DNA from: an uncultured Candidatus Saccharibacteria bacterium
GTDB taxonomy: Bacteria; Patescibacteriota; Dojkabacteria; SC72; WJKH01
Assembly (NCBI GenBank): GCA_964602665.1
Contig: CAZRRH010000002.1
Coordinates: forward strand, 1 to 60,170
Direction of reading: 5' to 3'
DNA length: 60,170 bases
Under the pieces are notes generated by a model. The model saw only the letters and a list, made by a program, of their open reading frames with translations. It made no database searches and had not been told where the DNA came from. A program made the position numbers and the translations under genes. This document shows, one piece after another, positions 3,592 to 50,187 of this stretch. Position 1 is the first letter of the stretch, and every line of letters starts with the position of its first letter.

Positions 3592-3635
3592 GATAACTAT
3601 TCTATCATAAAATCAAATATGTTAGAATAGATCTT

Positions 3636-4620: not shown

Positions 4621-4638
4621 TAGTATCTAGAATACTTT

Positions 4639-4712
4639 GGGTCGCTAGCTCATCAGGTTAGAGCAACTGCCTTTTAAGCAGTAGGTGCTGGGTTCGAGTC
4701 CCAGGCGACTCA
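4639..4712 (+). tRNA. tRNA-Lys(UUU)
   Basis: Acceptor GGGTCGC/GCGACTC, anticodon arm ACTGC-CTTTTAA-GCAGT, T-loop TTCGAGT; CCA not encoded. Confidence 0.95.
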
Positions 4713-4772
4713 TTTTTTATCTCCACAGAATGACAAAAAAAGCTTGAAAATCTCTATGGTTTTTGATATATT

Positions 4773-7423: not shown

Positions 7424-7441
7424 ATATAATTATACACCATT

Positions 7442-8125: not shown

Positions 8126-8128
8126 CAA

Positions 8129-29482: not shown

Positions 29483-29701
29483 TTAGTTGTTTGGTGCTGT
29501 AAAAGCAATTATTGTTGGGCCTATTATAGACATTGTCCTCGTGACCAATTCTTGTGAGTCAGGAGATAATTCATCTCCAATTTGTTTATCCTCAAGTGCT
29601 CTGCTTGCATCTGGACTTTCAAGAAATGTAAAATCGAATCTGGTTCCTGTCTCTGGATTAATATCAGGTACACTGGTTGTATCTATATGATATTGGATCA
29701 T
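29483..29701 (-). CDS. Small hypothetical protein
   Basis: 72-codon ORF co-oriented with 28652..29449. Confidence 0.4.
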   Translation of the reverse strand: MIQYHIDTTSVPDINPETGTRFDFTFLESPDASRALEDKQIGDELSPDSQELVTRTMSIIGPTIIAFTAPNN

Positions 29702-29776
29702 ATTTATTTGCTAACAAATTACTGCATAGTATTATACTATAAAACAATTAAAATGTCAATAATAGGAATCTAATAA

Positions 29777-29854
29777 TGGGGTGGTCGACAGGACTTGAAC
29801 CCGCAACCTCCTGTGCCACAAACAGGAGCTCTAACCAATTGAGCTACGACCACC
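29777..29854 (-). tRNA. tRNA-His(GUG), with encoded G-1 and CCA
   Basis: Reverse complement G-GTGGTCG...CCTGT-TTGTGGC-ACAGG...TTCAAGT...CGACCAC-C-CCA. Confidence 0.95.
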
Positions 29855-30408: not shown

Positions 30409-30482
30409 CGGAGAATAGCTCAGATGGCTAGAGCACACGCATGGGGTGCGTGGGGTCGCAGGTTCGAGTCCTGTTTCTCCGA
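30409..30482 (+). tRNA. tRNA-Pro(GGG)
   Basis: Acceptor CGGAGAA/TTCTCCG, anticodon arm CACGC-ATGGGGT-GCGTG, T-loop TTCGAGT. Confidence 0.95.
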
Positions 30483-30530
30483 TGGTAATGGCAGGAGGGT
30501 GCGTGAGGTCGTAAGCATGGTTAGGCTATT
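30479..30530 (+). repeat. Left direct repeat (candidate attL)
   Basis: CCGATGGTAATGGCAGGAGGGTGCGTGAGGTCGTAAGCATGGTTAGGCTATT, 48/52 identical to 41186-41237. Confidence 0.85.
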
Positions 30531-30547
30531 GCGGAGCAATGGCCTAA
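30521..30547. terminator. 12-bp hairpin (one G:U) containing the recombinase stop codon
   Basis: TTAGGCTATTGC-GGA-GCAATGGCCTAA; no U-tract, so terminator function is uncertain. Confidence 0.4.
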
Positions 30548-32010
30548 TTCAAGTCGGGTCGCCCCGACCATTCAGAACGAGATTGCATTTTTATAATCTC
30601 GGAAAATGGATTTTTAGCGGTATAATCGAATTTTTCATTGGTAATGATAAAGTTCGAGAATACAAATTGGAGAATTTCTCGCTTTTCTTCTTGTGTCCCC
30701 TGTTTATATATATATGAAGCCATTTTACAGAGTTCGAGAATTTTTAAACCTGTTTCAAAATAAGATTGATTAGCTCTTTTGTGCTTTTTTATAAGGTTTA
30801 ATAGTCTATCTTCATTTTCCTGTTCTTTCTTTGCTTTCTCAAGATAAACTTCTTTTGAAATCAAACCATCTAATTTATCATCGTACAATTGATCTTTTCG
30901 CTTTTGAATACGATCTAACTTTTGTTGCAATGTTTTTAATGCTTCATTATGAAACTGGATTTCATTCGTGTGAGAATTTTTTAAAACGTTTTTAACATCA
31001 TCATAAATATTCTCTGGAATAATAAGCATATCAAGCACTTGTATAATTTCGTCTTCAAGTTTTTCTTCTCTCCAATAATTGTGAGAATGCTTTTTGTAAT
31101 GCTCTGTACATCGATAATAAATATATTTGCCTTTCTGAATTTCGGTCGTATAGCTCGAGCCACAAACACCACATTTAATAAGTCCTGAAAACAGGAAGTT
31201 ATGTTTATCTTTTCTTGGACGTTTTCTGTTATTGAATATTACTTGCACTTTATAAAATAATTCTGGTTCAATTATTGGCTTATGCTTACCTTGATAAGTT
31301 TCACCTTTCCATATCATTTTACCAATATAGAAGGGATTTTGTAAGGTTACGTGTAATTTTGATTTTGATACTTTTTTATTGAATTTATTCACAAACCCTT
31401 CTTTATGTAACTGTTCACAAATGCGTTCTAACGAGAAAAGCTCTGTAGCGTACATTTCAAAAGCTTTTTTTACAAAATGGGCTTGTGAATCATCAATGAT
31501 AACGTTTTTTGTATTTGCATCGTTTTTATATCCAAGTGGAGCTGATCCCGGCCAGCCACCTTGTCGTAACTTTTCCTGAAAACCTTTTTTAACTTCATCT
31601 GAAAGATTGTTAATGTAGTTTTTAGCAAGTACTGCTTGTAAGTCAAAATTTAATTTCTCTGAGGATCTAGAATTTCTATGAAGTACAATATTTTCTCTTA
31701 CAAAGTGAAACTCCTTGTCGTAATCATCAATTAATTCTTGAACTTTTACAATGTCTCTAAAATTTCTTGCTACACGATCTATTTTTTCAAATATTACAAC
31801 TCGTATGTCCGATTTCTTTAAGAATTCAATCATTTCATTAAATGCTTTTCTTCCCTCTTTTTTTGCTGATTCGGAAACTTTCCAACTTTTTTGTACTTTT
31901 AAATTCTGCTTTTCTGCGTAAATACCGATTTTCTCGTACTGAGCATCAAGTGAATATCCTTCTGCCTGTTCTCTTGATGAAACTCGACAGTAGGCAATTG
32001 CTTTATTCAT
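30544..32010 (-). CDS. Large serine recombinase (resolvase + recombinase + zinc ribbon + coiled coil)
   Basis: AYCRVSS.EQ catalytic Ser motif, DRVARN, GGWPG.APLGY, NPFYIG, HKPII, CGVCG...YYRC. Confidence 0.95.
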   Translation of the reverse strand: MNKAIAYCRVSSREQAEGYSLDAQYEKIGIYAEKQNLKVQKSWKVSESAKKEGRKAFNEMIEFLKKSDIRVVIFEKIDRVARNFRDIVKVQELIDDYDKEFHFVRENIVLHRNSRSSEKLNFDLQAVLAKNYINNLSDEVKKGFQEKLRQGGWPGSAPLGYKNDANTKNVIIDDSQAHFVKKAFEMYATELFSLERICEQLHKEGFVNKFNKKVSKSKLHVTLQNPFYIGKMIWKGETYQGKHKPIIEPELFYKVQVIFNNRKRPRKDKHNFLFSGLIKCGVCGSSYTTEIQKGKYIYYRCTEHYKKHSHNYWREEKLEDEIIQVLDMLIIPENIYDDVKNVLKNSHTNEIQFHNEALKTLQQKLDRIQKRKDQLYDDKLDGLISKEVYLEKAKKEQENEDRLLNLIKKHKRANQSYFETGLKILELCKMASYIYKQGTQEEKREILQFVFSNFIITNEKFDYTAKNPFSEIIKMQSRSEWSGRPDLN

Positions 32011-32136
32011 TGTTTACTATCCTTAGATTAAATAAAAAATGGGGATCCGTTGGACACAACTCTGCAAAAACAGAATTGTACAGATCCCCATTTATTCTAT
32101 CTATAACCTTCAGATAGTTAGGTCTGTCTTTGCATT

Positions 32137-32358
32137 TTAAGTTGTGTCCATTTCCATTTTATCATTTTCAAGAAGATTTTTGTACTTTTTTGAAAGGCTT
32201 TTTTCTGTCTTAATCCGTTTATCAATTTTATCAAGTGTTTTTATAAAGCCGACAAGATTAAATAGCGAATTATACGCTTCTTTATCAGATATATTCTTTT
32301 TAAAGTCCTTTTGGTAATTTCTCTTAAAAGAGTTTACAAAAGGTTTTATGTTATCCAC
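32137..32358 (-). CDS. Small helical protein upstream of the recombinase (candidate directionality factor)
   Basis: 73 aa, GTG start overlapping the upstream stop, co-oriented with the recombinase. Confidence 0.55.
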   Translation of the reverse strand: MDNIKPFVNSFKRNYQKDFKKNISDKEAYNSLFNLVGFIKTLDKIDKRIKTEKSLSKKYKNLLENDKMEMDTT

Positions 32359-32687
32359 AAATTGTTTGTGCTTTTATTCCAGCCTATGTATTGAGTTTCT
32401 ACAAGTCTTAAAAGCTCCGATTTAATATCAGATGAATAAATTCCTATCTCAATGAAATCAGAGGGCTTTAAATTGGCTACAGAGCGTCTGCAACCGATTG
32501 AGAATCTGGCAATGAATAAAAGTATTTTGATTTGCCTTTTAGTGAAAATATTTGAAAAAAGAATTGGGTTTAAAAGTGTGAGAGGATTTTTAAGAAATTC
32601 AAGTTTGTCAATTATTTCAATTGGAACAGGAGACAGATTTATTTGTTCTGTTTTATAGCTATTTATGATGTCTCTTATATGTTCCAT
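32346..32687 (-). CDS. Phage replication protein O N-terminal-like winged-helix protein
   Basis: FTKRQIKILLFIARFSIG resembles the lambda O motif LTKRQFKVLLAILRKTYG. Confidence 0.55.
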   Translation of the reverse strand: MEHIRDIINSYKTEQINLSPVPIEIIDKLEFLKNPLTLLNPILFSNIFTKRQIKILLFIARFSIGCRRSVANLKPSDFIEIGIYSSDIKSELLRLVETQYIGWNKSTNNLWIT

Positions 32688-32957
32688 TACTATAAATTTT
32701 CTCGCATGTTCTAGTCATATGCAAAAAAATTGACAACTCTCAGAAGAAGAAAAAGTTAAAATAATATTGATAGTATGGGCAGTTTAAGAGATTACAAAAA
32801 AATCAAAATATATGGTCTACACTATAGTCTGCACACTATAAAAAACAGGGTTAAATAGATAAAAATTATTTAAAAGAGATTACTTCTAAAATTTTCCAAA
32901 AACATACATTTAAAAAATGAGTGTTTTCGAGGATACACATAGTGTCCGTAGTCGAGG

Positions 32958-32998
32958 GAGTGATTGGGTGGAGGTTGCAAACGTCCACCCAATCACTC
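32958..32998. repeat. Perfect 15-bp inverted repeat
   Basis: GAGTGATTGGGTGGA-GGTTGCAAACG-TCCACCCAATCACTC. Confidence 0.9.
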
Positions 32999-33185
32999 AT
33001 ACCGAGAGGAAAATTTTAAGGAATAATCGCGTAAAAGTGACTTTTTTTATAGTAAAGGTAGATTGTTTCTTTTGGTTTCGGAGATGAAATGGGTGGGCAA
33101 CAAAATTGGTTTAGAAATTTAACAAAATATGATATGATATTTCTATTAATAGATTGCTAAAATTAATTGGATTTTGAAATGAAAA

Positions 33186-33389
33186 ATGAATAAAAGCAAA
33201 CTTGCAAAGAATATTAACAAATTTAGAAAAGAAAGAGGTTGGACACAGGAGCAATTAGCAGAAAATTCTGGTGTAACATATACAACTATTATTAAATTGG
33301 AACAGGGAGTTGTTGAAAATCCTATACTTAGAACACTTGAGAAACTGGCAAAAGTGTTTGAAGTGAGTATAGATAATTTGATTAAATAA
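33186..33389 (+). CDS. XRE/C-protein-like HTH regulator
   Basis: LAKNINKFRKERGWTQEQLAENSGVTYTTIIKLEQG..NPILRTLEKLA; 5 nt upstream of mod. Confidence 0.92.
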   Translation: MNKSKLAKNINKFRKERGWTQEQLAENSGVTYTTIIKLEQGVVENPILRTLEKLAKVFEVSIDNLIK

Positions 33390-33394
33390 AGAAG

Positions 33395-35269
33395 ATGCAA
33401 AATTTAAAAGAAAAGCTGTTTGACTTACTAGAGTCAGATACAAGAATCTGGAATGAAGAAAAAACAGAATTGAACGAAACCTTACTGAAAGACATGATTG
33501 ATAAACTTGATGAAAAATTGCTTGAAATACTATTAAGTAGTGAAGATATTAAGGAGAAATTTTTTATCAAAGTAACTCGGACTGAGCAAAGTCGAAGTCA
33601 AGATGTCTATGTGCTGAAGCAGAACGAATTGAAGTTTTTTATTGATGAAAACAAACTTGACAACTCCTATACACAATATAGAAATAAGATTGGGTTAAGG
33701 GTTGGGAATAAATTACTTTCTGAAAGGGATGAGGTTGTGCTTGACTGGCCTTTTAAAGATTGTGTGCTTGAGGGTGGTATGACAAAAGAAGATCAAAAAA
33801 GAAATGAGATATTTTTCAATGAGGTGTTGGCAAAAGATGAAATTGATAGACTGTATGAGCCCAAAGCTCTTGTAAACTGGAAAAGATACACTGCAAAGGG
33901 TGAAGAAAAAGTTACGGAGATTAAAAGAGATAAAGATGGAATGATAAGGGAGAATTTGATTATTAAAGGCAATAATCTTTTAGCCTTGCATACGTTGAAA
34001 AAAGAATTTGCAGGAAAGGTGAAGCTGATTTATATCGATCCACCTTATAATACCGAAAATGGTTCTTTTAGATATAATGACTGTTTTAATCATTCTTCGT
34101 GGCTAGTTTTTATGAGGAACAGATTGGAGATTGCAAAACAATTACTTTCTGATGACGGCTTAATCTTTGTGCAAATAGATGATAATGAGCAGGCATATTT
34201 AAAAGTATTAATGGATGAATTATTCGACAGAGAAAATTTTATAAATTCTATTATTTGGAAAAGGACATTCAGTCATGGTGATTCCGGTCAGGGTGCTAAC
34301 CATCTTGGTAGACTGCACGATGTTATTCTTCTTTACAAAAAATCAGATCAAGGGAAATTAAATAATGTTTATACTGAATATTCAGAAGAATATGTTAAAA
34401 ATTTTTATAAATATACTGATGAGAATGGGCGCAGATATCGTTTAGTAACTATGACGGCACCCGGAGGATCAAATAAAGGAAATCCTTTCTATGAAGTTAT
34501 GGGAGTTGAGAGATATTGGATGTATTCGAAAAAGAATATGGAAGAACTTATCAAGAAGGGGGAAGTTGTTCAAACTAATCGAGGTACCGTACCACAAAGA
34601 AAAAGATATTTAGATGAATCAAAGGGTGTCCCACTACAAGATCTATGGGTTGATATAAACCCGTTGCAGGGAGTACAAAAAGAAAAGGTTGATTTTGTTG
34701 GACAAAAACCCGAAAAATTACTTGAAAGAATAATAGAATTGTCTACAAATCAAAGCGATTTGGTTATTGATTTTCATATCGGGACAGGAACGACTTTAGC
34801 GGTCGCTCATAAAATGGGTCGGCAATATATCGGTATTGAACAAATGGATTATATTCATGATTTGGCGGAGTCACGGTTAAAAGAAGTTATTAAGGGGGAT
34901 CAATCGGGAATCTCAAAAAATGTAAACTGGCAAGGGGGTGGTGACTTTATCTACCTCGAACTTGCCAAGTGGAACGAAGAAGCTAAAGAAAAAATCCTTA
35001 ATGCCAAAAGCCTTGATGAGCTAGTTAAACTATTTGATGAACTCTACGAAAGATACTTCCTTAACTACAATGTTAAAACAAAGGAATTCAAGGAAAAGAT
35101 TGTAAAAGAGGACGAATTCAAGAAACTTTCACTTGATGAACAGAAAAAGCTGTTTGTAGAAATGCTAGATATGAATCAGATGTATGTCAATTTCAGTGAA
35201 AGAAACGATAAAAAATATGGATTATCAGCTGATGATATTAAAATATCAGAAATGTTTTATAGTAAATAA
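33395..35269 (+). CDS. mod: Type III restriction-modification methyltransferase (Mod)
   Basis: NLIIKGNNLLAL, IYIDPPYNT, QIDDNE, KPEKLLERII, DFHIGTGTT, GIEQMDY. Confidence 0.93.
   Translation: MQNLKEKLFDLLESDTRIWNEEKTELNETLLKDMIDKLDEKLLEILLSSEDIKEKFFIKVTRTEQSRSQDVYVLKQNELKFFIDENKLDNSYTQYRNKIGLRVGNKLLSERDEVVLDWPFKDCVLEGGMTKEDQKRNEIFFNEVLAKDEIDRLYEPKALVNWKRYTAKGEEKVTEIKRDKDGMIRENLIIKGNNLLALHTLKKEFAGKVKLIYIDPPYNTENGSFRYNDCFNHSSWLVFMRNRLEIAKQLLSDDGLIFVQIDDNEQAYLKVLMDELFDRENFINSIIWKRTFSHGDSGQGANHLGRLHDVILLYKKSDQGKLNNVYTEYSEEYVKNFYKYTDENGRRYRLVTMTAPGGSNKGNPFYEVMGVERYWMYSKKNMEELIKKGEVVQTNRGTVPQRKRYLDESKGVPLQDLWVDINPLQGVQKEKVDFVGQKPEKLLERIIELSTNQSDLVIDFHIGTGTTLAVAHKMGRQYIGIEQMDYIHDLAESRLKEVIKGDQSGISKNVNWQGGGDFIYLELAKWNEEAKEKILNAKSLDELVKLFDELYERYFLNYNVKTKEFKEKIVKEDEFKKLSLDEQKKLFVEMLDMNQMYVNFSERNDKKYGLSADDIKISEMFYSK
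33575..33598. repeat. 24-bp REP-like palindromic element, in frame inside mod
   Basis: ACTCGGACT-GAGCAA-AGTCGAAGT (7/9 arm pairs) encoding TRTEQSRS. Confidence 0.65.
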
Positions 35270-35271
35270 TT

Positions 35272-38046
35272 ATGGATGATCAAATATTACAACAACAAGT
35301 TGAATCTGAAATAGGTAGAAAAACCATTTCAAAAATAAAGATTCCTGAATATATCACTAGTAATATTAAGCATGATCTCTGGCAGTGGCAGATCGAGGCC
35401 TTACAATACTTCATAGCATATGATGATCCTGAGTATGACTTTGAAAGAAGTTTCAGCGCCCCTGTACATCTAATGTTTAACATGGCAACCGGAACAGGTA
35501 AAACAGTACTCATGGCTTCACTGATTCTTTATTACTACAAAAAAGGTTATCGCCACTTCATCTTCTTTGTAAATCAAAATAATATTGTAGATAAAACTGA
35601 AAACAACTTTATCAATAAAAACCATAATAAATACTTATTCAAACAAAACATCGTAATTGACGATAAAACAGTAAATATCAAGAAAGTCGAAAGTTTTGAT
35701 GATAGTGATGATATTCAGATCAAATTTACTTCCATTCACAAGTTACATAATGCAGTTTATCTGGCAAAAGAAAACGCTGTAACGCTTGAAGATCTGCAGA
35801 AAAGGAATCTTGTGATGATTGGTGATGAAGCTCACCACTTTAACGCCTCAACGATGAAAAACGGACAAATGAATTTAGATATGCCGACTGAGCTTAAAGA
35901 TAATTCAAGTGCCAGTGATGTTGAAAGAAGCTGGGAAAATACTGTTTTGAATAAAATACTTAAAAAAGAAGGTTATTCAGGACAAAGTGAGAACAGAAAT
36001 GTTTTGCTTGAATTTACTGCGACTATTCCAAACAATCAGGAAGTAAAAGAGAAATACCGCACAAAAACAATATATAAATACGAATTAATAGACTTTCTTA
36101 ATGCAGGATACACAAAAGAGATAAATTTAATTTCCACTTCTTTAAATAAAAAAGAAAAAATCCTGTTAGCACTACTCTTTAATTGGTATAGACACAAGAT
36201 AGCTTTATTAAATAACATTCCCAATTTCAAACCAGTTATTTTATTTAGAAGCAAATACATTGAAGAATCAAAAAATGACTATCGTGAATTTTTAACAACA
36301 GTAAAAGAATTACAAAAAACTGATTTTGAATTTTTATCAAGCATTGAAAAGAAACTGCAATCAGAACAAAGGTCAGTTCTAAAAGTATATGAGCAAGGTG
36401 CAAGCAGGATAAAACAAATGATTGGATTTATTAATGAGCAGAATATTGACTTTAACGACATTATCAGTTTTATAAAAGCTGATTTTGATGAAAGAAATTG
36501 CATTATTACAAATTCAAAGGATAATAAGACTACAACAAAGGAAAAAACGACAGAAGAACAGGAACAGCTTTTAAACAGCCTTGAGGATAAGAATAATCAT
36601 ATTAGAGCAATATTTACAGTTAAGCGTCTTACAGAGGGCTGGGATGTGCTAAATCTATACGATATCGTAAGGCTTTACGAAGGTCGTGACGAGGGTCAAG
36701 ACAAAAGCGGAAAAAGAAAGGCAGGAGAAACAACAACGCAGGAAATTCAGCTTATCGGGAGAGGTGTAAGATATTATCCTTTTGAATACAAAGAAACAGA
36801 AGCAAGTAAAAGGAAGTTTGATGAGGACTTAGAAAATCCGTTAAGAATATTAGAAGAATTTTATTTTCATAGCGAAAATGATATTAGATATCTGGATGAA
36901 TTAAAACGTGAATTAAAGAATAAAGGATTTATTCAGGATAATAGGATTGTTAAAAAGTATAAATTAAAGGAGGATTTTGAAAACACGGACTTTTTCAAAG
37001 AAGTAAAAGTTTGGAAAAATGAAAGAATTGATAATCCTGAAAAAAGAAAGCTCAATTTATCTGAAATAAAAACAGATCCACAATTTAACCCGTTTACTTA
37101 TGAAATTAAAGGATTTTCTCTAAAAGAACAGAAAGTTGACCTTAATGAAAAGTTTGATAATGTATTGGCAGAGTCAAAACCAGCATACAAAAGATCGATA
37201 CAGATATCTTTCAAAGAGATAGATAAACACATAATTAGAAAAGCAATAAATATCAAGGCAAAAGCAGATAATTCAATTCTGAAATATGAAAATTTAACCA
37301 ATGAATTAAACATCTCCTCGATTGATGATATATTCAATGATAAATATCTTGGAGATATGAAATTCAATATCATTACAGAAAGCGAAACCGTAAATTTATC
37401 AGATATAAGTGCAGATGATTTGTTAAATTGCTTACTGATTTTCTTTGAGCAATTCACAAGCAAACTAAAGGAGATTAATAATCCATATAAAGGTGATACA
37501 AAGTTTAAACACTTCTCGTTTAAAGAATTATTTGGAGAACAAAAAGAAAAGAGCGTTTTAATCGATGAGGAAAGCAAACTACTTGAAGATGAAATGCTGA
37601 AATGCAAGTGGTACGTATTAAATGGTTTCAACGGTACGAGTGAAGAAAGAGAACTACTTGATTTCTTAAAAAAGAGAATTGTTAATCTACAGGAAAGATA
37701 TGATCAGGTATACCTACTTAGAAATGAAGAAGTATATAAAATATACGATTTTGAGAAAGGTAGAGGATTTGAACCTGATTTTCTTCTATTCCTAAAAGGG
37801 AAAAATAAAACACTTTATTATCAAATTTTCATTGAACCAAAAGGAGATGAATTCAAGGATAAATCAGGATTATTCACTGAAAGTAAGGAAGGATGGAAAG
37901 AAGAATTTATGAAACAAATATCTCATAAATATGGTAATGGAGAGATTTTGAAAGCCGAGAACAGAAAATATGTTTTATATGGTTTACCTCTTTTTAATAG
38001 TAAAGATAAACTAAGTTTTGAAAATGAATTTAATAAATTTATTTGA
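35272..38046 (+). CDS. res: Type III restriction endonuclease (Res)
   Basis: SF2 motifs MATGTGKT, DEAHH, FTAT, LTEGWDV, QLIGRGVR; nuclease FEPDF...IEPKG. Confidence 0.93.
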   Translation: MDDQILQQQVESEIGRKTISKIKIPEYITSNIKHDLWQWQIEALQYFIAYDDPEYDFERSFSAPVHLMFNMATGTGKTVLMASLILYYYKKGYRHFIFFVNQNNIVDKTENNFINKNHNKYLFKQNIVIDDKTVNIKKVESFDDSDDIQIKFTSIHKLHNAVYLAKENAVTLEDLQKRNLVMIGDEAHHFNASTMKNGQMNLDMPTELKDNSSASDVERSWENTVLNKILKKEGYSGQSENRNVLLEFTATIPNNQEVKEKYRTKTIYKYELIDFLNAGYTKEINLISTSLNKKEKILLALLFNWYRHKIALLNNIPNFKPVILFRSKYIEESKNDYREFLTTVKELQKTDFEFLSSIEKKLQSEQRSVLKVYEQGASRIKQMIGFINEQNIDFNDIISFIKADFDERNCIITNSKDNKTTTKEKTTEEQEQLLNSLEDKNNHIRAIFTVKRLTEGWDVLNLYDIVRLYEGRDEGQDKSGKRKAGETTTQEIQLIGRGVRYYPFEYKETEASKRKFDEDLENPLRILEEFYFHSENDIRYLDELKRELKNKGFIQDNRIVKKYKLKEDFENTDFFKEVKVWKNERIDNPEKRKLNLSEIKTDPQFNPFTYEIKGFSLKEQKVDLNEKFDNVLAESKPAYKRSIQISFKEIDKHIIRKAINIKAKADNSILKYENLTNELNISSIDDIFNDKYLGDMKFNIITESETVNLSDISADDLLNCLLIFFEQFTSKLKEINNPYKGDTKFKHFSFKELFGEQKEKSVLIDEESKLLEDEMLKCKWYVLNGFNGTSEERELLDFLKKRIVNLQERYDQVYLLRNEEVYKIYDFEKGRGFEPDFLLFLKGKNKTLYYQIFIEPKGDEFKDKSGLFTESKEGWKEEFMKQISHKYGNGEILKAENRKYVLYGLPLFNSKDKLSFENEFNKFI

Positions 38047-38079
38047 ATGCACAAATAGTATAATTTTAATTTTATTTAT

Positions 38080-38304
38080 ATGATAGATATTGGAAAAAGC
38101 AAAATTTCTCTCACATGCCCTTTATGTAAGTTTATTAACCATGTTACTTTAGAGGATGTTTCAAAAGGGAAGTCAATTATATGTAATGGATGTTTAAAAA
38201 CAATTAAACTTGTAGACAATGAAGGTTCGACTAAAAAAGCCATAAAAACGATCAAACAAGCTACCAATGATTTATCCAATAATTTGAAAAGATTATCTAA
38301 ATGA
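38080..38304 (+). CDS. Small zinc-ribbon protein
   Basis: CPLC-x16-CNGC followed by an amphipathic helix; own TATAAT at 38059. Confidence 0.7.
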   Translation: MIDIGKSKISLTCPLCKFINHVTLEDVSKGKSIICNGCLKTIKLVDNEGSTKKAIKTIKQATNDLSNNLKRLSK

Positions 38305-39170
38305 TGGAAATAAGATATATTCGAAAAAACTTACAAAGTAAAAAAGAAGAACTTCTATCCGCAAAATATCAATTAGCGGAGAAACGATTAAGTGACTTTA
38401 TCGAATACTGCAAGGGAAATCAAATTATTAGCAAAATAATATCTGAACTCCCAAATATCGAAATAGATTTTGAAAAATGGGAAGCAGAACTATGGGGAGC
38501 TTCTGACTATGGTATCCCTGATGATTATTCTGAAGCAGCAAGTTACTGTTGGGAAATAATTACTAAATATAGGGGTAGATCTGTTAATATTGCACAGAAT
38601 TTTCATGTGTCCTCAAATAAGATTACAGACCATGTACAAGAGTATTTTGAATCATTTGTTCCATTTATTTATGATTACATAGACAATAAATTAATTGAAC
38701 TTGAGGAAATCATTAGCCCTCTGGATATGGTGTCCGAGGTTCATGCCCTTGTAAATACAGGACTTTCGGAAAATTATCCTGAAATTCAAAAACGATTAAA
38801 TGATGTTTATAAAAGACTATATATATCAGAATCAAATGATGAATATGTGGGTATAGCTAATTCTTGCAGATTAATAATTATTGATTTTGCAACATTAATA
38901 TATAAATCTGAATACTTACCATCAAATGCAGAAGTCCCGAAAAATGATGATGCAAAAGTAAAATTGAAATATACCTACAGAAACTCAAATTCTGGTATTT
39001 CTAAATCAATATTAGAAGGACGTGAAAAATTTATTGATTCTATTTGGCAGATAGTTTCTTCATCCGTTCACAGGAAGAATATTCATAAAGAAGAAATAAA
39101 GGAGGTAGTCTTGTTAACATATCTTCTATTATCTTCTTTTATAAAAACAATGAATAAAAAATTAATTTGA
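38301..39170 (+). CDS. Hypothetical protein with an abortive-infection-associated-like C-terminal domain
   Basis: EYVGIANSCRLIIIDFATLIY...PKNDDAKVKL resembles helical domains recalled from Abi-linked defence proteins; ATGA overlap with upstream gene. Confidence 0.45.
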   Translation: MMEIRYIRKNLQSKKEELLSAKYQLAEKRLSDFIEYCKGNQIISKIISELPNIEIDFEKWEAELWGASDYGIPDDYSEAASYCWEIITKYRGRSVNIAQNFHVSSNKITDHVQEYFESFVPFIYDYIDNKLIELEEIISPLDMVSEVHALVNTGLSENYPEIQKRLNDVYKRLYISESNDEYVGIANSCRLIIIDFATLIYKSEYLPSNAEVPKNDDAKVKLKYTYRNSNSGISKSILEGREKFIDSIWQIVSSSVHRKNIHKEEIKEVVLLTYLLLSSFIKTMNKKLI

Positions 39171-39694
39171 TAACTTACAAAGCCATGCAACCATATAAAC
39201 CACATAAATTACCCATAAAAGAACTAAATTGGGTTGAATTTATACCATATTTAGGCAATGCTAGAGATAAACTCGCAAAATTTGATGGATTATTACAAGG
39301 AATCCCAAACCCAAGAGTTCTTTTATCTCCTTTAACAACAAAGGAAGCTGTACTCTCATCAAAAATCGAAGGAACTCAAGCAACACTTGAGGAAGTACTA
39401 AAATATGAAGCTAATCCATCTGCGACTCAAGGAAAAACTGAGGACATAAAAGAAGTACTCAATTATAGACAAGCTCTCATGTATGCAATTGATCGCCTTG
39501 ATAAACTCCCGCTAAGTGAAAGACTTATCAAAGAGGTACATAAAATTCTGCTTAAAGATGTTAGATCAAATACTGGAATGCTAGGAGAATTTAGAGATGG
39601 ACAGGTTTTTATTGGTAAGGATGGAACTATGTCAAGTACAGATTACCCAATGATTCAGAAATTAATTAGTAATGACCAGTTTCATGTTTTATGA
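39167..39694 (+). pseudogene. Fic family protein, N-terminal part only
   Basis: YKPHKLP, LAKFDGLL..IPNP, KEAVLSSKIEGTQATL, LIKEVHKILL, GEFR; ends before any HPFxDGNGR motif. Confidence 0.8.
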
Positions 39695-39910
39695 GAATTT
39701 GCAAAAACTTGTAAAACAAAAACACTGTTACAATGGGAGTTTTATCATTTTTTACAAGTTTATGATGATAATTTTTACATAAGGAATGAGAGCTAATGTT
39801 TATATTTTTAAAAATAACTGAAAGCTAGTGATATGCAATAGACTGACCGCTACAAAGCTAGAGGGCGGTTAAATACATATTCACTGACTACTAAATTAAA
39901 AACTTAAAAT

Positions 39911-41113
39911 ATGATAAAACCAAAATTTACATTTGAAAAAATTAAGTTCTCAATAGATCCCTCTACGCTTAAAAAAGCAATTGACCTATACGAAACAGGT
40001 AAAATAAAGGATTTTAAAGAAACAGCTTATTGCTACACTGCAAAGGTTCAAGGAACAAGTTTATATAAAGTAACAGTAGATATAGATCATTATGATTATG
40101 GAGATTGTGACTGTTATATAGGAAAACAGGGTGACTTATGTAAACATATGATAGCAGTTGCAATATATGCACTGTTTAGAGGAGACAAAATCCCAGAAGA
40201 TAGCATAGAAGTTTTACTACATCCTGTTTGCAGTAATAAAATAGGAGAATTAAATGAAAGTGAACTAGTAGAGGTTAAAGAGAAAATTTCACAGGCAGTA
40301 AAATTAATAAGAGCTTACTCAGGACCATCAAGCACATGGTTTCACTATCAGAATAAGCTATCAGAAGCTGTGAATCGACTAACGGAGGTAGTCTCGAAAA
40401 TGCCTGTAAGCTATCAAACTACTGATATTTTAATAAGACTTCTTGTAAGACTCGATAAAAAGCTTGTAAGTGGTGGAGTTGATGATTCGGATGGAACTGT
40501 TGGAGGTTTTATTACCGATGTCGTTGAAGTCTTAAAAGAGTTTGCAAAACTAGATGAGAAATGTTTAAAGGCATTTAATAAACTTAAAGGAGTCAGTACC
40601 TGTTTTGGTTGGGAAAATTCTTTGTTGCAGTTAATAATGCCAAGCCATCTTTTCTATATAACTAAGATACGTGATGAGCTGAAAATGTACGGCTATCAAG
40701 TTGGAGATATTGAGTACACATCTAACAATTATGATGAAAAAGGTAAACTTATTACAAAAAAGATCCCCACAGTTACATCAAAATATGGAGAAATGGGTAT
40801 AATAGAAGGTAAATTTTATCTTGTAATAATTTTTAAGAAGGAGCTATTATCAGAAAAATTTCTTAAAGACATAGCCAAAATAAGAAAATATAAACTGTAT
40901 GGATTTAATGATTTCTTAAAGGATATTGATATTAAAACAGTATTTTCAGAAGATTTTAAGGAAAAATACATTCAAATACAGTATGGTGATATAATTGAAA
41001 CAGACTATTATGAAATCATTAGGATTCACGATAAGTTGAAAAATATGTTTTTAGAAAATAAGATTTATCCAATTAATCAACTGAATATAAATTTAAGATC
41101 CGAAATTGTCTAA
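39911..41113 (+). CDS. SWIM zinc-finger protein with an unrelated C-terminal extension
   Basis: CDC-x8-CKH (CDCYIGKQGDLCKHMIAV), GGVDDSDG. Confidence 0.75.
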   Translation: MIKPKFTFEKIKFSIDPSTLKKAIDLYETGKIKDFKETAYCYTAKVQGTSLYKVTVDIDHYDYGDCDCYIGKQGDLCKHMIAVAIYALFRGDKIPEDSIEVLLHPVCSNKIGELNESELVEVKEKISQAVKLIRAYSGPSSTWFHYQNKLSEAVNRLTEVVSKMPVSYQTTDILIRLLVRLDKKLVSGGVDDSDGTVGGFITDVVEVLKEFAKLDEKCLKAFNKLKGVSTCFGWENSLLQLIMPSHLFYITKIRDELKMYGYQVGDIEYTSNNYDEKGKLITKKIPTVTSKYGEMGIIEGKFYLVIIFKKELLSEKFLKDIAKIRKYKLYGFNDFLKDIDIKTVFSEDFKEKYIQIQYGDIIETDYYEIIRIHDKLKNMFLENKIYPINQLNINLRSEIV

Positions 41114-41185
41114 AAACCTTCCTATATAAATTGAAATTATCTACAATCTCTATAAAGCTGAAATTCGTAAGTACGTCTTTCAACC

Positions 41186-41237
41186 CCGATAGTAGTGGCA
41201 GGAGTGTGCGTGGGGTCGTAAGCATGGTTAGGCTATT
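41186..41237 (+). repeat. Right direct repeat (candidate attR)
   Basis: CCGATAGTAGTGGCAGGAGTGTGCGTGGGGTCGTAAGCATGGTTAGGCTATT, 48/52 identical to 30479-30530. Confidence 0.85.
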
Positions 41238-41283
41238 TTAAAGACTTGGTATAATTCAGATCATTTATTATAATAAAATAATT

Positions 41284-44876: not shown

Positions 44877-46583
44877 ATGCATAAAAAGTCATTAATTGCT
44901 GATCAGAATAAAATTAATTTAGTAATCAGAAGAATTTTAAGGGAAGATCCAACAATAATTAAACCGTCAGAAAGACATTTCCTTGAGAGAGAGAGTTTTT
45001 TAAAATCTTCTAAATTTGATAAGGAAGAGATAATTTTAAATGATATAAAGCTTATTGGAAGAGATGCATATATTGTAAAATTGCTTAAAAAAGTTGCTGA
45101 ATCTTTGCCAATTGACAGCTTTGATAATATTATTGAATTGCTTCCAGGAACAGCAGAGGAATTAAGCGTTGCTTTTAGCAAGGCAGGATATAGAAAAATT
45201 TATGATAAATTAGACATGTTTAATTTTTTCTCTGAAGATGAGTTATATTCTGTCAGGAAAAACTTTCAGGCATTAGGGTTTGATAAGGAAAGCGAAATTT
45301 TGATATCAGATGTTTTTTTATGGGCATCAAAAGAGCAAAAAGAATATGATGCTGTTATTGCTAAACATCCATTTGATGATCTTTTAATTGGGCAATTTGC
45401 ACAAGACAAAGGATTAAGTAGCTTTGATTATTTTAGGTCTCCAGTTAATTGCAAAAAGTCTTGGAAAATGCTAACTCAAAATTATTATTATTATTTAGAA
45501 AAGATTATTGAATTAGCAAAAAATATTTCAAGTATTGTTCGTAAGAATGGTTATTTTATAGTAATTAATCATCCTGATTCGTTCTCTACATTTAATAGGA
45601 TGGATGACAGATTGATATTGGCACAAGATGTAACGAACAGATTTATTACAGAATTGTATAGAAATGGTTTTGAATTTATAGAAAACACTGCTATAAATGA
45701 CTATAATAATAATACTTACGCAAACTCTTTGTTTGTATTGAAAAAGGAAAGATATTATAATAAGAAAAATGATACTGATAGCTTAGGCGACTTATTATCT
45801 GCTAATTTTGTGAAGAATGTAAACCCTGCTGTGGTGGGGAAGTTGTATTATCAGTCTCGTATGGAAATCTTTAAGAGCAATTCTTCTCAAAATGAAAATA
45901 GTTTGCACAATGAAGTCGAATTGTTAATTGATTTTATATGTATTAGCAGTAAAAGAATAAATTATAGGGAAAAATTAATTGAAGAAAAGATTTTTCAAGC
46001 TAGAGAATTGCTTAGGACAAAAGAAGGCTCTTATGAAGCGATTAAACTAATAAAATCATTGTTAAAAATCTTAAAGATTAAAACTAAAGATATAATTATA
46101 TATCAAAATATTTCTCCTTGCCAAAAAAGAAACAGACAAATTAGCTGCAAAGAGATATTTTCAGAACTTGGTATAAAAATAAGATATGTTATTGACGATT
46201 CGATTGAACAACAAACCCCTGGTAATTTTAAAAGTTATTTTGTAAATTTGGATAAGCTTCATTATATGGCATTATATTTCTTAAAAAAATACGATTTTGC
46301 GATTGTTAATGGTGGACACATAACTGTGATAGACAATAAAATAAAATATTTAGGAGGGTTTTGTTCGTTTAATAATCTTCTTGGTTTAGAGGAAGGGATA
46401 TTATTCGTTAACATAAAGAATATAAGTATAAAAAAGGTAATTGTCAAGCTAAAAAGTGAAAATCTAAAGCCGTGGAAAATTGTTGTTAATGTCGAAAATG
46501 ACTTTGATGAAGAGAAAAGAAATGATTTAGTTAAGGCTTTAAATTTATTCTCGGATGACATTGATATGGTTACTTATTATTGA
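44877..46583 (+). CDS. Class I SAM-dependent methyltransferase-like domain plus unknown C-terminal half
   Basis: IIELLPGTAE (motif I-like), KLDM, YDAVIAKHPFDD, SIVRKNGYFIV. Confidence 0.5.
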   Translation: MHKKSLIADQNKINLVIRRILREDPTIIKPSERHFLERESFLKSSKFDKEEIILNDIKLIGRDAYIVKLLKKVAESLPIDSFDNIIELLPGTAEELSVAFSKAGYRKIYDKLDMFNFFSEDELYSVRKNFQALGFDKESEILISDVFLWASKEQKEYDAVIAKHPFDDLLIGQFAQDKGLSSFDYFRSPVNCKKSWKMLTQNYYYYLEKIIELAKNISSIVRKNGYFIVINHPDSFSTFNRMDDRLILAQDVTNRFITELYRNGFEFIENTAINDYNNNTYANSLFVLKKERYYNKKNDTDSLGDLLSANFVKNVNPAVVGKLYYQSRMEIFKSNSSQNENSLHNEVELLIDFICISSKRINYREKLIEEKIFQARELLRTKEGSYEAIKLIKSLLKILKIKTKDIIIYQNISPCQKRNRQISCKEIFSELGIKIRYVIDDSIEQQTPGNFKSYFVNLDKLHYMALYFLKKYDFAIVNGGHITVIDNKIKYLGGFCSFNNLLGLEEGILFVNIKNISIKKVIVKLKSENLKPWKIVVNVENDFDEEKRNDLVKALNLFSDDIDMVTYY

Positions 46584-50000: not shown

Positions 50001-50187
50001 TCAAATTGCATGGGAGTTTTATATTGGTGGCTATCAACCTGCTCAAAAATGGCTAAAAGATAGAAAAGGTCGTAAGTTGAGTTTTGATGAAGTTTTGCAT
50101 TATCAAAAGATTATTGTTGCATTGGTGAATACAGATAGGTTGATGAAGGAGATTGATAAATTAATACCGAAGTGGCCGATTAAATAA
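47050..50187 (+). CDS. Single-chain Type IIG-like RM enzyme (nuclease + m6A MTase + Type ISP-like specificity domain)
   Basis: GAPDF...GYIEAKD, GVYYTP, VLDPATGTGTF, GNPPY, DYIYAILHSP.YR..Y.EFLK.DFPRIP, WEFYIGGYQPAQKWLKDRK; no helicase motifs seen. Confidence 0.9.
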   Translation: MNEAVRKYLEEILNKYKSGHAREHAYRPALQRLVEEINDSINAINDPKQQKVGAPDFVLLKNKTPIGYIEAKDINVDLDKEFKTKNQFNRYKQSLNNLCFTNYLQFIFYLNGQEVQRVELAKLVDKKIEIIEENIPLFESVLKNFTIAKTVSIKSPKELASLMAEKAKMLKNVIYLALSQEEEEQQQIEKQFETFKHMLIHDLTKEQYADIYAQTVAYGMFAARYHDNSMETFSKDEAGKLLPKSNPFLRNFFDTITGINIDDRIVWIVDDMAELFNHVSVRELLENYGKDTKRNDVIVHFYETFLSEYDSKMRKSRGVYYTPEPVVDFIVRAVDDILKSEFGIADGLADTSKIEVVKEVQGSKKKQKVMEHRVQVLDPATGTGTFLDHVIKHIYRSKFEGQQGLWQSYVDEHLLPRLHGFELLMASYAMAHLKLDITLAQTGYDSSKGQGGRLGVYLTNSLEEPTATYRDLFSQWITTESLEANKIKKEKPIMVVMGNPPYSVSSSNKGEWIQNLIKDYKKDLNERKINLDDDYIKFIRYAQWFIEKNGEGIIAYISNNSFIDGITHRQMRKSLLETFNKIYILDLHGNSKKKEESPDGSKDENVFDIMQGVSINIFVKNKSSRSKLGEVYHSELWGKREEKYNELFNNIEKFTWSKLQCQSPSYFFVPKDFSKIIDYEKAINLSDLFRSYSSGIESQKDSVAIQFTDGEADIIFEDFKNLDAVDLSNKYKICDTRDWTIKNAKTDLISSKRVIISYRPFDYRYTNYSGKSKGFIAYPRDDVMKQFVEKANYGLVFKRGFSESLAAPCFISDTIIDRRFWSRPGMQGAEQIAPLYLHSESRLDSSTRQPNFDQKIIDEIALKLKLQFIPDHEHADSGKEGTFNPLDVLDYIYAILHSPTYRERYKEFLKIDFPRIPFTSDQQLFWALVKKGRELREYHLMEHVNSSKLITKFPITGENEITQFPKFDGSKVWINETQYFDKVPQIAWEFYIGGYQPAQKWLKDRKGRKLSFDEVLHYQKIIVALVNTDRLMKEIDKLIPKWPIK

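What the first reader, a model, noticed from the sequence alone, without database searches (positions are those of the whole stretch)
30479..41237. Compact serine-recombinase integrative element at tRNA-Pro delivering a Type III RM system
Seen: 52-bp direct repeats with 4 mismatches bound ~10.7 kb containing recombinase, small ORF and O-like wHTH (minus strand), divergent from XRE, mod, res and further cargo. The repeat starts in the last four tRNA bases (CCGA). Its right copy contains GTGCGTGGGGTCG, identical to tRNA-Pro 30446-30458 (anticodon stem and variable loop). Known: serine integrases normally leave short cores, and long tRNA-derived repeats are typical of tyrosine integrases. Inference: an atypical tRNA-targeting serine-recombinase element with no conjugation or capsid genes, so it would be mobilised in trans.
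Basis: partly seen in the sequence, partly recalled or inferred. Interest (0 to 1): 0.75.

Follow-up and report, generated by a model that had tools for sequence, protein, structure and literature searches.

The report
Serine-recombinase restriction-modification island beside tRNA-Pro
A real 10.6-kb mobile island carrying a Type III restriction-modification system sits just downstream of a tRNA-Pro gene, but the 52-bp repeats flanking it are native host DNA: the serine recombinase used only a 6-bp core in a tRNA-like target, as such enzymes normally do.

Summary
Two related contigs that lack the island (L001, L003) keep both repeat copies, in tandem with an 89-bp period. The island lies between the copies, and attL and attR share only CCCCGA (30562-30567 and 41184-41189). 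The true element is about 30568-41189 (10,622 bp).

The target is a 20-nt sequence resembling a tRNA-Pro 3' end, 85 bp downstream of the real tRNA. It matches at 18/20 the tRNA-Pro(CGG) 3' end used by 95%- and 59%-identical recombinases elsewhere. The recombinase gene reads antisense across attL. Its last codons (RPDLN*) are host-encoded, and the element places CCA next to the core.

In an 80-sequence tree, at least 47 of 53 members of this recombinase clade abut an antisense tRNA or tRNA-like tail. Precedents exist: Dehalococcoides ssrA islands and the serine-recombinase tycheposons.

The host is probably a Dojkabacteria (CPR) bacterium. Relatives keep the wHTH, small-ORF and recombinase module but exchange the restriction-modification cargo. 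No circle junction was found. This is a new member of a known kind, of moderate interest.

The parts
30409..30482 (+). tRNA-Pro(GGG). It is intact in both occupied and empty strains and has no encoded CCA.
   Evidence: ARAGORN; Rfam tRNA model, 58.1 bits
30479..30530 (.). Native repeat copy 1 (52 bp). It is part of a host 89-bp tandem unit (30479-30567) and is not an att site.
   Evidence: present in empty-site contig L001 at 10583-10634
30548..30567 (+). B arm of attB/attL: TTCAAGTCGGGTCGCCCCGA. It resembles the T-loop plus 3' acceptor strand of a tRNA-Pro.
   Evidence: 18/20 identical to the tRNA-Pro(CGG) 3' end in L013/L014 and 14/20 to the adjacent tRNA-Pro(GGG). Unique in the window. Not recognised as tRNA by Infernal.
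30562..30567 (.). attL core CCCCGA, the only sequence shared by both junctions. The crossover lies within it.
   Evidence: Three-way comparison of L001 (empty site) with the window's left and right junctions
30568..41183 (.). Element-specific DNA. With one core copy the element is 10,622 bp.
   Evidence: Absent from L001 and L003. attL is present in L004, L006 and L008; attR is present in L011.
30544..32010 (-). Large serine recombinase, 488 aa in the integrated state. The last 24 nt (30544-30567, encoding SG-RPDLN*) are host DNA. A reconstructed circle would give a 519-aa ORF.
   Evidence: Pfam Resolvase, Recombinase and Zn_ribbon_recom; PHROG integrase, E = 2e-91; C-terminus analysis
32137..32358 (-). 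Conserved 73-aa ORF of the integration module. It is a candidate recombination directionality factor, which is an inference only.
   Evidence: 53% identical to the L012 85-aa ORF in the same position. No family match.
32346..32687 (-). 113-aa wHTH protein resembling the RepO / DnaD N-terminal domain. It is shorter than the 139-180-aa relatives.
   Evidence: Pfam Phage_rep_O, E = 1.2e-5, below the curated cut-off; PHROG DnaD-like helicase loader, E = 1e-11; 55% identical to L012; homologues in L014 and L095
32927..33012 (-). Conserved GC-rich hairpin or palindrome (15+3 bp) followed by a conserved tract with a second small hairpin, in the divergent intergenic region. Function unknown; it could be an operator, ori, oriT or RNA.
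   Evidence: 7 compensated pairs; the CM finds it only in the window, L094, L095, L012 and L014; no Rfam match
33186..33389 (+). 67-aa XRE-family HTH protein, a C-protein-like controller immediately upstream of mod.
   Evidence: Pfam HTH_3; PADLOC Control_protein hits
33395..35269 (+). Type III R-M methyltransferase (Mod, 624 aa). The central region is swapped relative to L094.
   Evidence: Pfam N6_N4_Mtase and TypeIII_RM_meth; PADLOC MTase_III, E = 1e-206; comparison with the L094 Mod
35272..38046 (+). Type III R-M restriction subunit (Res, 924 aa), full length.
   Evidence: Pfam ResIII; PADLOC REase_III, E = 5e-108, covering model positions 22-856 of 873
38080..39694 (+). Three overlapping or abutting cargo ORFs: 74 aa; 289 aa (weak N-terminal match to PDC-M14B); and 175 aa with a Fic_N domain only and no Fic catalytic domain.
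39911..41113 (+). 400-aa SWIM zinc-finger / DUF3201 protein (weak N-terminal match to PDC-S62). It is the last cargo gene.
41164..41189 (+). P arm plus attR core: TTCGTAAGTACGTCTTTCAA + CCCCGA (core at 41184-41189).
41186..41237 (.). Native repeat copy 2 (52 bp). Its start forms the B' arm of attB.
   Evidence: present in L001 at 10672-10723, directly after copy 1's unit

Best explanation
The window holds a 10.6-kb integrative island (about 30568-41189) in a probable Candidatus Dojkabacteria (CPR) chromosome.

Shown:
- The island was inserted, or can be lost, by conservative site-specific recombination at a 6-bp core, CCCCGA.
- That core lies at the end of a 20-nt tRNA-Pro-3'-end-like sequence, 85 bp downstream of the intact tRNA-Pro(GGG).
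- The island sits between the two copies of a pre-existing native 89-bp tandem duplication. This is why it appears to be flanked by 52-bp direct repeats.

Inferred:
- The island's own large serine recombinase (LSR) is the catalyst. Its gene sits at the tRNA-proximal end and reads antisense across attL.
- The LSR recognises the T-loop plus acceptor-strand sequence as the B half-site of attB.
- attP is embedded in the last conserved codons of the LSR gene (E-W-S-G). The W codon TGG is the complement of CCA, so the element places CCA directly after the core.
- Excision would need a directionality factor. The conserved 73-aa ORF is the candidate.

Cargo: a complete Type III R-M system (C-like XRE regulator, Mod, Res) plus four poorly characterised genes.

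Transfer between cells must rely on something else, such as transformation, transduction or a helper element, because no transfer genes are present. That route is untested.
For: Empty site:
- L001 and L003 carry the identical deformylase and tRNA-Pro flank, followed directly by the 652-aa right-flank gene. Both repeat copies are retained and the junction reads ...GTCGGGTCGCCCCGA|TAGTAGTGG.
- The left flank is 100% identical over 671 bp, right up to the core.
- attL or attR is found in four further samples.

LSR:
- All three domains are present.
- The tail RPDLN* is an antisense translation of host DNA.

Same target motif in relatives:
- The 95%-identical LSR in L013/L094 abuts a perfect 21-nt copy of the tRNA-Pro(CGG) 3' end.
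- The 59%-identical LSR in L014 abuts the genuine tRNA-Pro(CGG).
- L094 is the same element type at about 90-93% nucleotide identity, at a different locus.

Independent second case:
- The 516-aa LSR element in L001 has the core TGGGGT, which is the complement of the tRNA-His 3' end ACCCCA. Its C-terminal 21 residues are antisense tRNA-His.

Family level:
- 40 of 76 loci have an antisense tRNA at the LSR 3' end, against about 1.5 expected. One has a sense tRNA and none has a tRNA upstream.
- In the NJ tree, at least 47 of 53 members of the clade containing the window show this, while a sister clade has none.

R-M system: it is complete.

Precedents for this architecture: PMC3146451 and 10.1101/2020.12.28.424599.
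Against: - No circular (attP) junction was found in JGI metagenomes or IMG/VR, so excision is inferred only from the presence/absence polymorphism.
- Dyad symmetry of the reconstructed attB and attP is weak (at most 8/20). The crossover dinucleotide cannot be assigned within CCCCGA.
- The native units are not recognised as tRNA-like by Infernal even at E <= 10. 'tRNA-like' therefore rests on a 20-nt and a 13-nt similarity.
- No RDF has been identified.
- The wHTH gene is shorter than in relatives and the Fic gene lacks its catalytic domain, so parts of the island may be decaying.
- Recombinase activity is untested.
Confidence: 0.85

Rival explanations
1. The 52-bp direct repeats are attL and attR, generated when an atypical serine recombinase integrated the element into the 3' end of tRNA-Pro, duplicating a long tRNA-derived sequence as tyrosine-integrase islands do.
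For: The repeats flank the island, start in the last 4 nt of tRNA-Pro and contain a 13-nt tRNA-Pro-identical stretch. Related LSR islands in Dehalococcoides are flanked by 20-bp repeats of the ssrA 3' end.
Against: Empty-site contigs L001 and L003 retain both copies plus the 37 nt between them. The insertion point is 85 bp past the tRNA, and only CCCCGA is common to both junctions.
Confidence: 0.03
2. The island is a fixed, non-mobile region. The island-free strains arose by deletion through homologous or microhomology-mediated recombination, not by recombinase-mediated excision or integration.
For: No circle junction was detected. Some island genes look truncated. The occupied contig L011 is 100% identical to the window, which is compatible with clonal inheritance.
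Against: - Homologous recombination between the 52-bp repeats would leave one chimeric copy, not two.
- The breakpoints coincide exactly with the conserved E-W-S-G end of the recombinase gene and with the same tRNA-Pro-like motif used by related elements at other loci.
- A second, unrelated-cargo LSR element shows the same precise geometry at tRNA-His.
Confidence: 0.07
3. The native 89-bp units, including the tRNA-like arm, are themselves scars of earlier integrations at tRNA-Pro. On this view, remnants of former elements left behind tRNA-3'-mimicking P arms, and the present island is the latest member of a tandem accretion series rather than an insertion into pristine host DNA.
For: - The units contain tRNA-Pro-derived stretches.
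- In L013/L094 a perfect 21-nt tRNA 3' copy lies about 190 nt beyond the intact tRNA.
- L047 and L090 have tRNA-like LSR tails with the real tRNA 4-5.5 kb further on.
- Tandem arrays and partial tRNAs are reported for the ssrA-GIs and tycheposons.
Against: - Conservative serine recombination does not duplicate flanking DNA, so it does not by itself explain duplication of the 52-bp segment.
- No recombinase remnant lies in the 85 bp.
- Infernal sees no tRNA-like structure there.
- This rival is compatible with the best explanation. It concerns the origin of the target, not the present element.
Confidence: 0.35

Closest known systems
[quoted passage not shown] 2011, PMC3146451)
   Same: - The large serine recombinase gene lies next to attL, and its ORF runs across attL and antisense into the (t)RNA gene, giving a variable C-terminus.
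- The target is the tRNA-like 3' end of a stable RNA gene.
- The islands are small and carry cargo, with no transfer genes (IME-like).
- Tandem arrays occur, with leftover 3'-end copies.
   Different: - The target there is tmRNA, with a 20-bp direct repeat. Here the target is a tRNA-Pro-like fragment and only 6 bp are shared.
- Their six-gene module (DsiA small recombinase, RecF-like, ParB, Mom, and others) is absent. Here the module is a RepO/DnaD-like wHTH gene plus a small ORF.
- Sequence relatedness of the two recombinases could not be tested with these tools.
Tycheposons of Prochlorococcus, the large-serine-recombinase minority (Hackl et al., bioRxiv 10.1101/2020.12.28.424599)
   Same: They are cargo-carrying integrative elements at tRNA genes. 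They leave partial tRNAs and tandem remnants in islands. A minority (27 of 937) use a large serine recombinase.
   Different: - Most tycheposons use tyrosine recombinases and carry replication modules (primase/helicase) or packaging genes.
- This element has only a small wHTH protein.
- It is in a CPR bacterium and carries R-M cargo.
Characterised phage and ICE serine integrases (phiC31, Bxb1, TP901-1, A118, CcrAB)
   Same: The domain architecture is the same (Resolvase, Recombinase, zinc ribbon). The crossover core is short and there is no target duplication.
   Different: - Identity to any annotated phage integrase is at most 30%, and only catalytic-domain matches are found in the PDB.
- Those enzymes mostly target protein-coding genes. 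This clade targets tRNA 3' ends, with attP inside its own 3' coding end.
Tyrosine-integrase tRNA islands
   Same: They lie at or near a tRNA 3' end, appear to be flanked by direct repeats, and leave the tRNA intact.
   Different: No tyrosine recombinase is present. The repeats are not produced by integration.

Membership tests
Large serine recombinase (serine integrase) | N-terminal resolvase catalytic domain with the catalytic serine motif | tested here: met
   Pfam PF00239, E = 3e-23, residues 4-153. The N-terminus reads AYCRVSSREQ.
Large serine recombinase (serine integrase) | Recombinase domain (PF07508) followed by a zinc beta-ribbon domain (PF13408) | tested here: met
   E = 1.5e-18 and 3.8e-15 respectively
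Large serine recombinase (serine integrase) | Conservative recombination at a short core, with no target-site duplication | tested here: met
   Only CCCCGA is shared by attL, attR and attB. The empty site is restored exactly.
Large serine recombinase (serine integrase) | Demonstrated attP x attB recombination, and RDF-dependent excision | not testable with these tools
   No circle junction was found in public assemblies. No RDF was identified.
t(m)RNA-3'-end-targeting LSR islands (Dehalococcoides ssrA-GI type) | LSR gene adjacent to attL, with its ORF reading antisense into the RNA gene or a copy of it | tested here: met
   The tail SG-RPDLN* is encoded by host tRNA-like DNA. The same is seen at real tRNAs in L001, L014 and 40 other loci.
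t(m)RNA-3'-end-targeting LSR islands (Dehalococcoides ssrA-GI type) | About 20-bp direct repeat of the RNA gene's 3' end at both island boundaries | tested here: not met
   Only 6 bp are shared. The P arm (41164-41183) is a diverged, longer version of the tRNA-like arm.
t(m)RNA-3'-end-targeting LSR islands (Dehalococcoides ssrA-GI type) | Six-gene integration module (DsiB, DsiA, RecF-like, ParB, Mom, large protein) | tested here: not met
   The module here is LSR, a 73-aa ORF and a wHTH protein.
t(m)RNA-3'-end-targeting LSR islands (Dehalococcoides ssrA-GI type) | Recombinase homologous to DsiB at clade level | not testable with these tools
Integrative mobilisable element (IME) | Own integrase and att sites, with presence/absence polymorphism | tested here: met
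Integrative mobilisable element (IME) | Relaxase and/or oriT for mobilisation by a conjugative helper | tested here: not met
   No relaxase domain was found in any ORF. The conserved hairpin at 32927-33012 is an untested oriT/ori candidate.
Type III restriction-modification system | Mod with an N6/N4 methyltransferase domain and the Type III N-terminal domain, with Res directly downstream (SF2 helicase plus endonuclease) | tested here: met
   Gene order is mod then res, with a 2-nt gap.
Tyrosine-integrase tRNA island | Tyrosine recombinase, with att repeats generated by integration into the tRNA | tested here: not met
   There is no tyrosine recombinase. The repeats pre-exist in the empty site.
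Prophage or phage satellite | Capsid, terminase or packaging genes | tested here: not met
   There are no such PHROG or Pfam hits.

The most novel reading that the evidence does not exclude
The window's recombinase belongs to a large clade of large serine recombinases spanning many phyla: Patescibacteria, Acidobacteriota, Armatimonadota, Melainabacteria, Elusimicrobiota, Dependentiae and others. This clade has specialised on the 3' ends of tRNA genes. At least 13 tRNA types are used, and specificity follows sub-clade. attP is embedded in the enzyme's own last conserved codons, with the W codon TGG being the complement of CCA. If this clade has not been described as such, it would be a natural library of serine integrases whose attB sites are predictable, highly conserved tRNA sequences. 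It would also be a major route of island accretion in CPR bacteria.
Probability: 0.45. Interest if true: 0.6.

Novelty: new member of a known kind. Interest (0 to 1): 0.4.

Why it matters
- It corrects a tempting mis-annotation. Direct repeats flanking an island next to a tRNA are not necessarily att sites. Here, an empty-site comparison moved the boundaries by 85 bp and 3 bp and restored ordinary serine-integrase behaviour.
- It documents a mobile R-M shuttle in a CPR (Dojkabacteria-like) genome, a group whose mobile elements are poorly known. The integration module is conserved while the R-M cargo and the Mod specificity domain are exchangeable.
- The family-level pattern, with the recombinase ORF reading into antisense tRNA in most clade members, extends the Dehalococcoides ssrA-GI architecture to many tRNAs and phyla. 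That could be useful for predicting attB sites of uncharacterised serine integrases.

Tried and rejected
- Circle junction. I searched for the exact attP junction in JGI metagenome contigs and found nothing. A more general search with the element's LSR-proximal end found only one more L013-type attL (L094) in metagenomes and nothing in IMG/VR.
- Crossover dinucleotide. A dyad-symmetry scan of reconstructed attB and attP gave at most 8/20, which is uninformative.
- Pseudo-tRNA status of the native 89-bp units. A permissive Infernal scan recognised only the real tRNA-Pro. I therefore describe the units as containing tRNA-Pro-derived fragments, not as a pseudogene.
- The idea that the P arm equals the B arm plus about 5 nt, matching the attP versus attB spacing model for serine integrases. 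The offset is 4-6 nt depending on the anchor, so I left it as speculation.
- Literature. Several term combinations found no paper describing a tRNA-targeting LSR clade. Two targeted searches then found the Dehalococcoides and tycheposon precedents. PMC7192596 is not held.
- Cargo of relative L012. PADLOC and Pfam gave nothing informative.
- The conserved hairpin. It has no Rfam match. A covariance model found it only in the five sequences it was built from, so it is a sub-family feature of unknown function.
- Solved structures. The PDB sequence search returned only catalytic-domain matches.

Full report
**1. Observation**

ARAGORN and Rfam place tRNA-Pro(GGG) at 30409-30482 on the + strand. 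The repeat finder returns 30479-30551 versus 41186-41258. The first 52 nt differ at 4 positions, and the match fades to 82% over 73 nt. The repeat begins with the last four tRNA bases, CCGA. The right copy contains GTGCGTGGGGTCG, which is identical to tRNA positions 30446-30458. A degenerate 41-nt pattern finds exactly these two copies in 60 kb, against none in 100 shuffles. The repeat is therefore real, non-random and not dispersed.

- a 488-aa large serine recombinase (LSR) with Resolvase, Recombinase and Zn_ribbon_recom domains;
- a 73-aa ORF;
- a 113-aa RepO/DnaD-like wHTH protein;
- divergently, an XRE regulator, Type III mod (624 aa) and res (924 aa, full-length match to PADLOC REase_III);
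- a 74-aa ORF, a 289-aa ORF, a 175-aa Fic_N-only protein and a 400-aa SWIM/DUF3201 protein.

**2. The empty site refutes the repeats as att sites**

An exact-protein lookup of the left-flank deformylase returned L001, an 80-kb ENA contig. In it, deformylase and tRNA-Pro are followed directly by the 652-aa gene that flanks the island on the right in the window. Reading and aligning that interval shows that L001 keeps both repeat copies, head to tail with an 89-bp period:

...TCTCCGA-[copy 1]-GCGGAGCAATGGCCTAATTCAAGTCGGGTCGCCCCGA-[copy 2]-TTAAAGAC...

The window's insertion lies between the copies. The junctions are:
- left: ...GTCGGGTCGCCCCGA|CCATTCAGAACG
- right: ...TCTTTCAACCCCGA|TAGTAGTGG
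- empty: ...GTCGGGTCGCCCCGA|TAGTAGTGG

Only CCCCGA (30562-30567 and 41184-41189) is common to both junctions. The left flank is 100% identical to L001 over 671 bp, right up to that core.

A second contig, L003, also has the empty junction. L004, L006 and L008 have attL, and L011 has attR. L011 is 100% identical to the window over 16 kb.

The element is about 30568-41189 (10,622 bp counting one core). It has a short core, as is normal for serine integrases.

**3. What the target is**

The 20 nt ending at the core, TTCAAGTCGGGTCGCCCCGA (30548-30567), resemble the T-loop plus 3' acceptor strand of a tRNA-Pro. The match to the adjacent tRNA-Pro(GGG) is 14/20.

Two relatives sharpen this:
- In L013, and independently in L094, a 95%-identical LSR ends against a perfect 21-nt copy of the 3' end of tRNA-Pro(CGG): GTTCAAGTCGTGTCACCCCGA|CCATTCAG. 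The copy lies about 190 nt beyond the intact tRNA.
- In L014, a 59%-identical LSR abuts the genuine tRNA-Pro(CGG)...GTCACCCCGA|CCAGTC.

The window's target matches that sequence at 18/20 and is unique in the window. In every case the element contributes CCA immediately after the discriminator base.

The native units are not recognised as tRNA by Infernal even at E <= 10. I therefore call them tRNA-Pro-derived fragments, not a pseudogene. Their origin, whether old scars of earlier elements or a simple tandem duplication, is unresolved.

**4. The recombinase reads across attL**

The LSR stop codon (30544-30546) lies 24 nt inside host DNA. The tail ...S-E-W-S-G-R-P-D-L-N* is CGT TCT GAA TGG TCG GGG CGA CCC GAC TTG AAT TAG, which is the antisense of the tRNA-like arm. 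A reconstructed circle would give a 519-aa ORF with an unrelated 36-residue tail.

Homologues are conserved up to W-S/G-G and then diverge. Several have tails such as RLDLNQRPLGPKPSVLAI or RRDSNPQPRAPKARILAN, which are antisense tRNA. So attP overlaps the last conserved codons of the gene, and the tail beyond them is probably non-functional read-through.

**5. An independent second case**

L001 carries a different 6.7-kb element between a 165-aa gene and tRNA-His. The window and L003 are its empty site. The junctions are:
- empty: ...CTAATAATGGGGTGGTCGACAGG...
- one junction: ...CTAATAATGGGGT|CGGTTATTAG...
- the other junction: ...TCTAAATTGGGGT|GGTCGACAGG...

The core is TGGGGT, the complement of the tRNA-His 3' end ACCCCA. 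The C-terminal WGGRQDLNPQPPVPQTGALTN* of the 516-aa LSR (32% identical to the window's) is an exact antisense translation of tRNA-His.

Aligned in the same reading register, the two cores overlap at tRNA positions 71-73. That region is my inferred crossover zone.

**6. Family level**

A genome-collection scan with the LSR alignment returned 80 loci from many phyla. Of the 76 loci with at least 150 nt downstream:
- 40 have an antisense tRNA within -80 to +300 nt of the LSR end, covering 13 tRNA types;
- 1 has a sense tRNA;
- none has a tRNA just upstream.

The tRNA density in these loci predicts about 1.5. Several loci with no called tRNA still have tRNA-antisense tails.

In an NJ tree, a sister clade (Rhodobacterales, Flavobacteriia, some Acidobacteriota) has no tRNA association. 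At least 47 of 53 members of the clade containing the window do. Sub-clades are specialised, for example Pro, Gln in Saccharibacteria and Arg(TCT) in Gastranaerophilales.

The nearest annotated phage integrases are at most 30% identical. The PDB search gives only catalytic-domain matches.

**7. Element family and cargo**

The wHTH, small-ORF and LSR module is conserved in L012 (55%, 53% and 69% identity), L014 and L095.

L094 shares about 90-93% nucleotide identity with the window from the LSR through XRE into mod. The central part of Mod (about residues 220-490) is replaced while both ends stay nearly identical, which is the classic pattern of a Type III specificity-domain swap.

L095 couples the same module to an EcoRI-type methyltransferase. 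L012 carries unrelated cargo. So this is a modular shuttle, often carrying R-M systems.

The same element type occurs at two different chromosomal loci that share the tRNA-Pro-like arm. That is the best available evidence of mobility.

No relaxase, conjugation, capsid or packaging function was detected. The Fic protein has only the N-terminal domain.

**8. Host**

The window encodes DnaE, GatA, UvrC and iPGM. The named relatives of DnaE, at 55-64% identity, are all Candidatus Dojkabacteria. The host is therefore probably a CPR/Patescibacteria bacterium.

**9. Comparison with what is known**

General surveys state that tyrosine integrases preferentially target RNA genes with long cores, and that serine integrases have short cores (PMC13626063).

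The specific architecture seen here has a clear precedent in the Dehalococcoides ssrA-GIs (PMC3146451):
- a 540-aa serine recombinase (DsiB) next to attL, whose ORF always overlaps attL and runs antisense into ssrA;
- 20-bp repeats of the ssrA 3' end;
- tandem islands;
- IME-like elements without transfer genes.

In Prochlorococcus tycheposons, 27 of 937 tRNA-targeting elements carry an LSR, and partial tRNAs mark old insertions.

The present element differs in its target (a tRNA-Pro-like fragment), its core length (6 bp, not 20 bp), its accessory module and its host phylum. I could not test homology to DsiB.

**10. Verdict**

The island, the LSR and the R-M cargo are real. The repeats as att sites, and atypical long-repeat behaviour by a serine recombinase, are refuted.
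- The element is a new member of a known kind: LSR islands at t(m)RNA 3' ends.
- The breadth of the tRNA-specialised LSR clade is the most interesting by-product, and I did not find it described as such.
- What remains unshown: excision (no circle junction), the crossover dinucleotide, the RDF and the transfer route.

Noticed in passing
window 29760-29790 (3' end of tRNA-His, 29777-29853, - strand); L001 about 3220-9880: The window is the empty site for a second, unrelated-cargo LSR element present in L001 and L002. That element has a 516-aa recombinase plus DUF4352, signal peptidase II and unknown genes. It is integrated at the very 3' end of tRNA-His, with core TGGGGT (the complement of ACCCCA). 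The recombinase's last 21 residues are antisense tRNA-His.
   Followed up: yes
window 32927-33012 (- strand): A conserved GC-rich hairpin or palindrome (GAGTGATTGGGTGGA...TCCACCCAATCACTC) is followed by a conserved tract with a second small hairpin. It lies in the AT-rich divergent intergenic region and overlaps a probably spurious 56-aa ORF (32917-33087). Compensated pairs are seen in L012 and L014. There is no Rfam match, and it is found only in the close sub-family. It could be an operator, ori, oriT or small RNA.
   Followed up: partly
window 33395-35269 (mod) versus L094 2-1708: The Mod proteins are nearly identical at residues 1-218 and again at the C-terminal end, but diverge across about residues 220-490. 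This looks like a target-recognition-domain swap between two copies of the same element type.
   Followed up: partly
window 29483-29701 (- strand): This 72-aa ORF corresponds to a 165-aa gene in L001 and L003. The window, like L005, is 279 nt shorter between this gene and the deformylase gene, so there is an in-gene indel polymorphism.
   Followed up: no
window 44877-46583, 47050-50187 and 50421-51257: The downstream neighbourhood is rich in defence genes and is variable. A 568-aa ORF is present in the window and L011 but absent from L001. A 1045-aa fused Type IIG/ISP-like methyltransferase-nuclease (N6_Mtase, MmeI_Mtase, Eco57I, Type_ISP_C) is intact here but split into 627, 82 and 430 aa in L001. 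An Mrr-family nuclease follows.
   Followed up: no
window 39167-39694: The 175-aa protein matches only the N-terminal ~150 residues of 361-aa SoFic-type Fic proteins. The catalytic Fic domain is missing and there is no room for it before the next gene. It is either a truncated gene or a stand-alone Fic_N protein. Its start overlaps the end of the upstream 289-aa ORF.
   Followed up: partly
window 32346-32687: The RepO/DnaD-like wHTH protein is 113 aa here, against 139-180 aa in L095, L012 and L014. The window lacks about 210 nt corresponding to the C-terminal part.
   Followed up: partly
L047 and L090 (and L025, L026, L035): These LSRs end in tRNA-antisense-like tails (for example WCARRDSNSRPSGS, WWGWGESNSRHAV) with no tRNA called at that spot. 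In L047 and L090 an antisense tRNA-Arg lies 4.3-5.6 kb further on. This suggests tandem element arrays or partial tRNA copies, as in the window.
   Followed up: no
L045-L093 sub-clade (for example L048, L052, L064, L068, L076): The sister clade of LSRs has no tRNA association. Its members have other conserved C-terminal motifs (...CRTWE..., ...LLGGA...), which hints at a different conserved target.
   Followed up: no
window 30409-30482 versus 29777-29853: tRNA-Pro(GGG) does not encode CCA, whereas tRNA-His does. The element supplies CCA directly after the tRNA-like arm at attL (30568-30570).
   Followed up: partly
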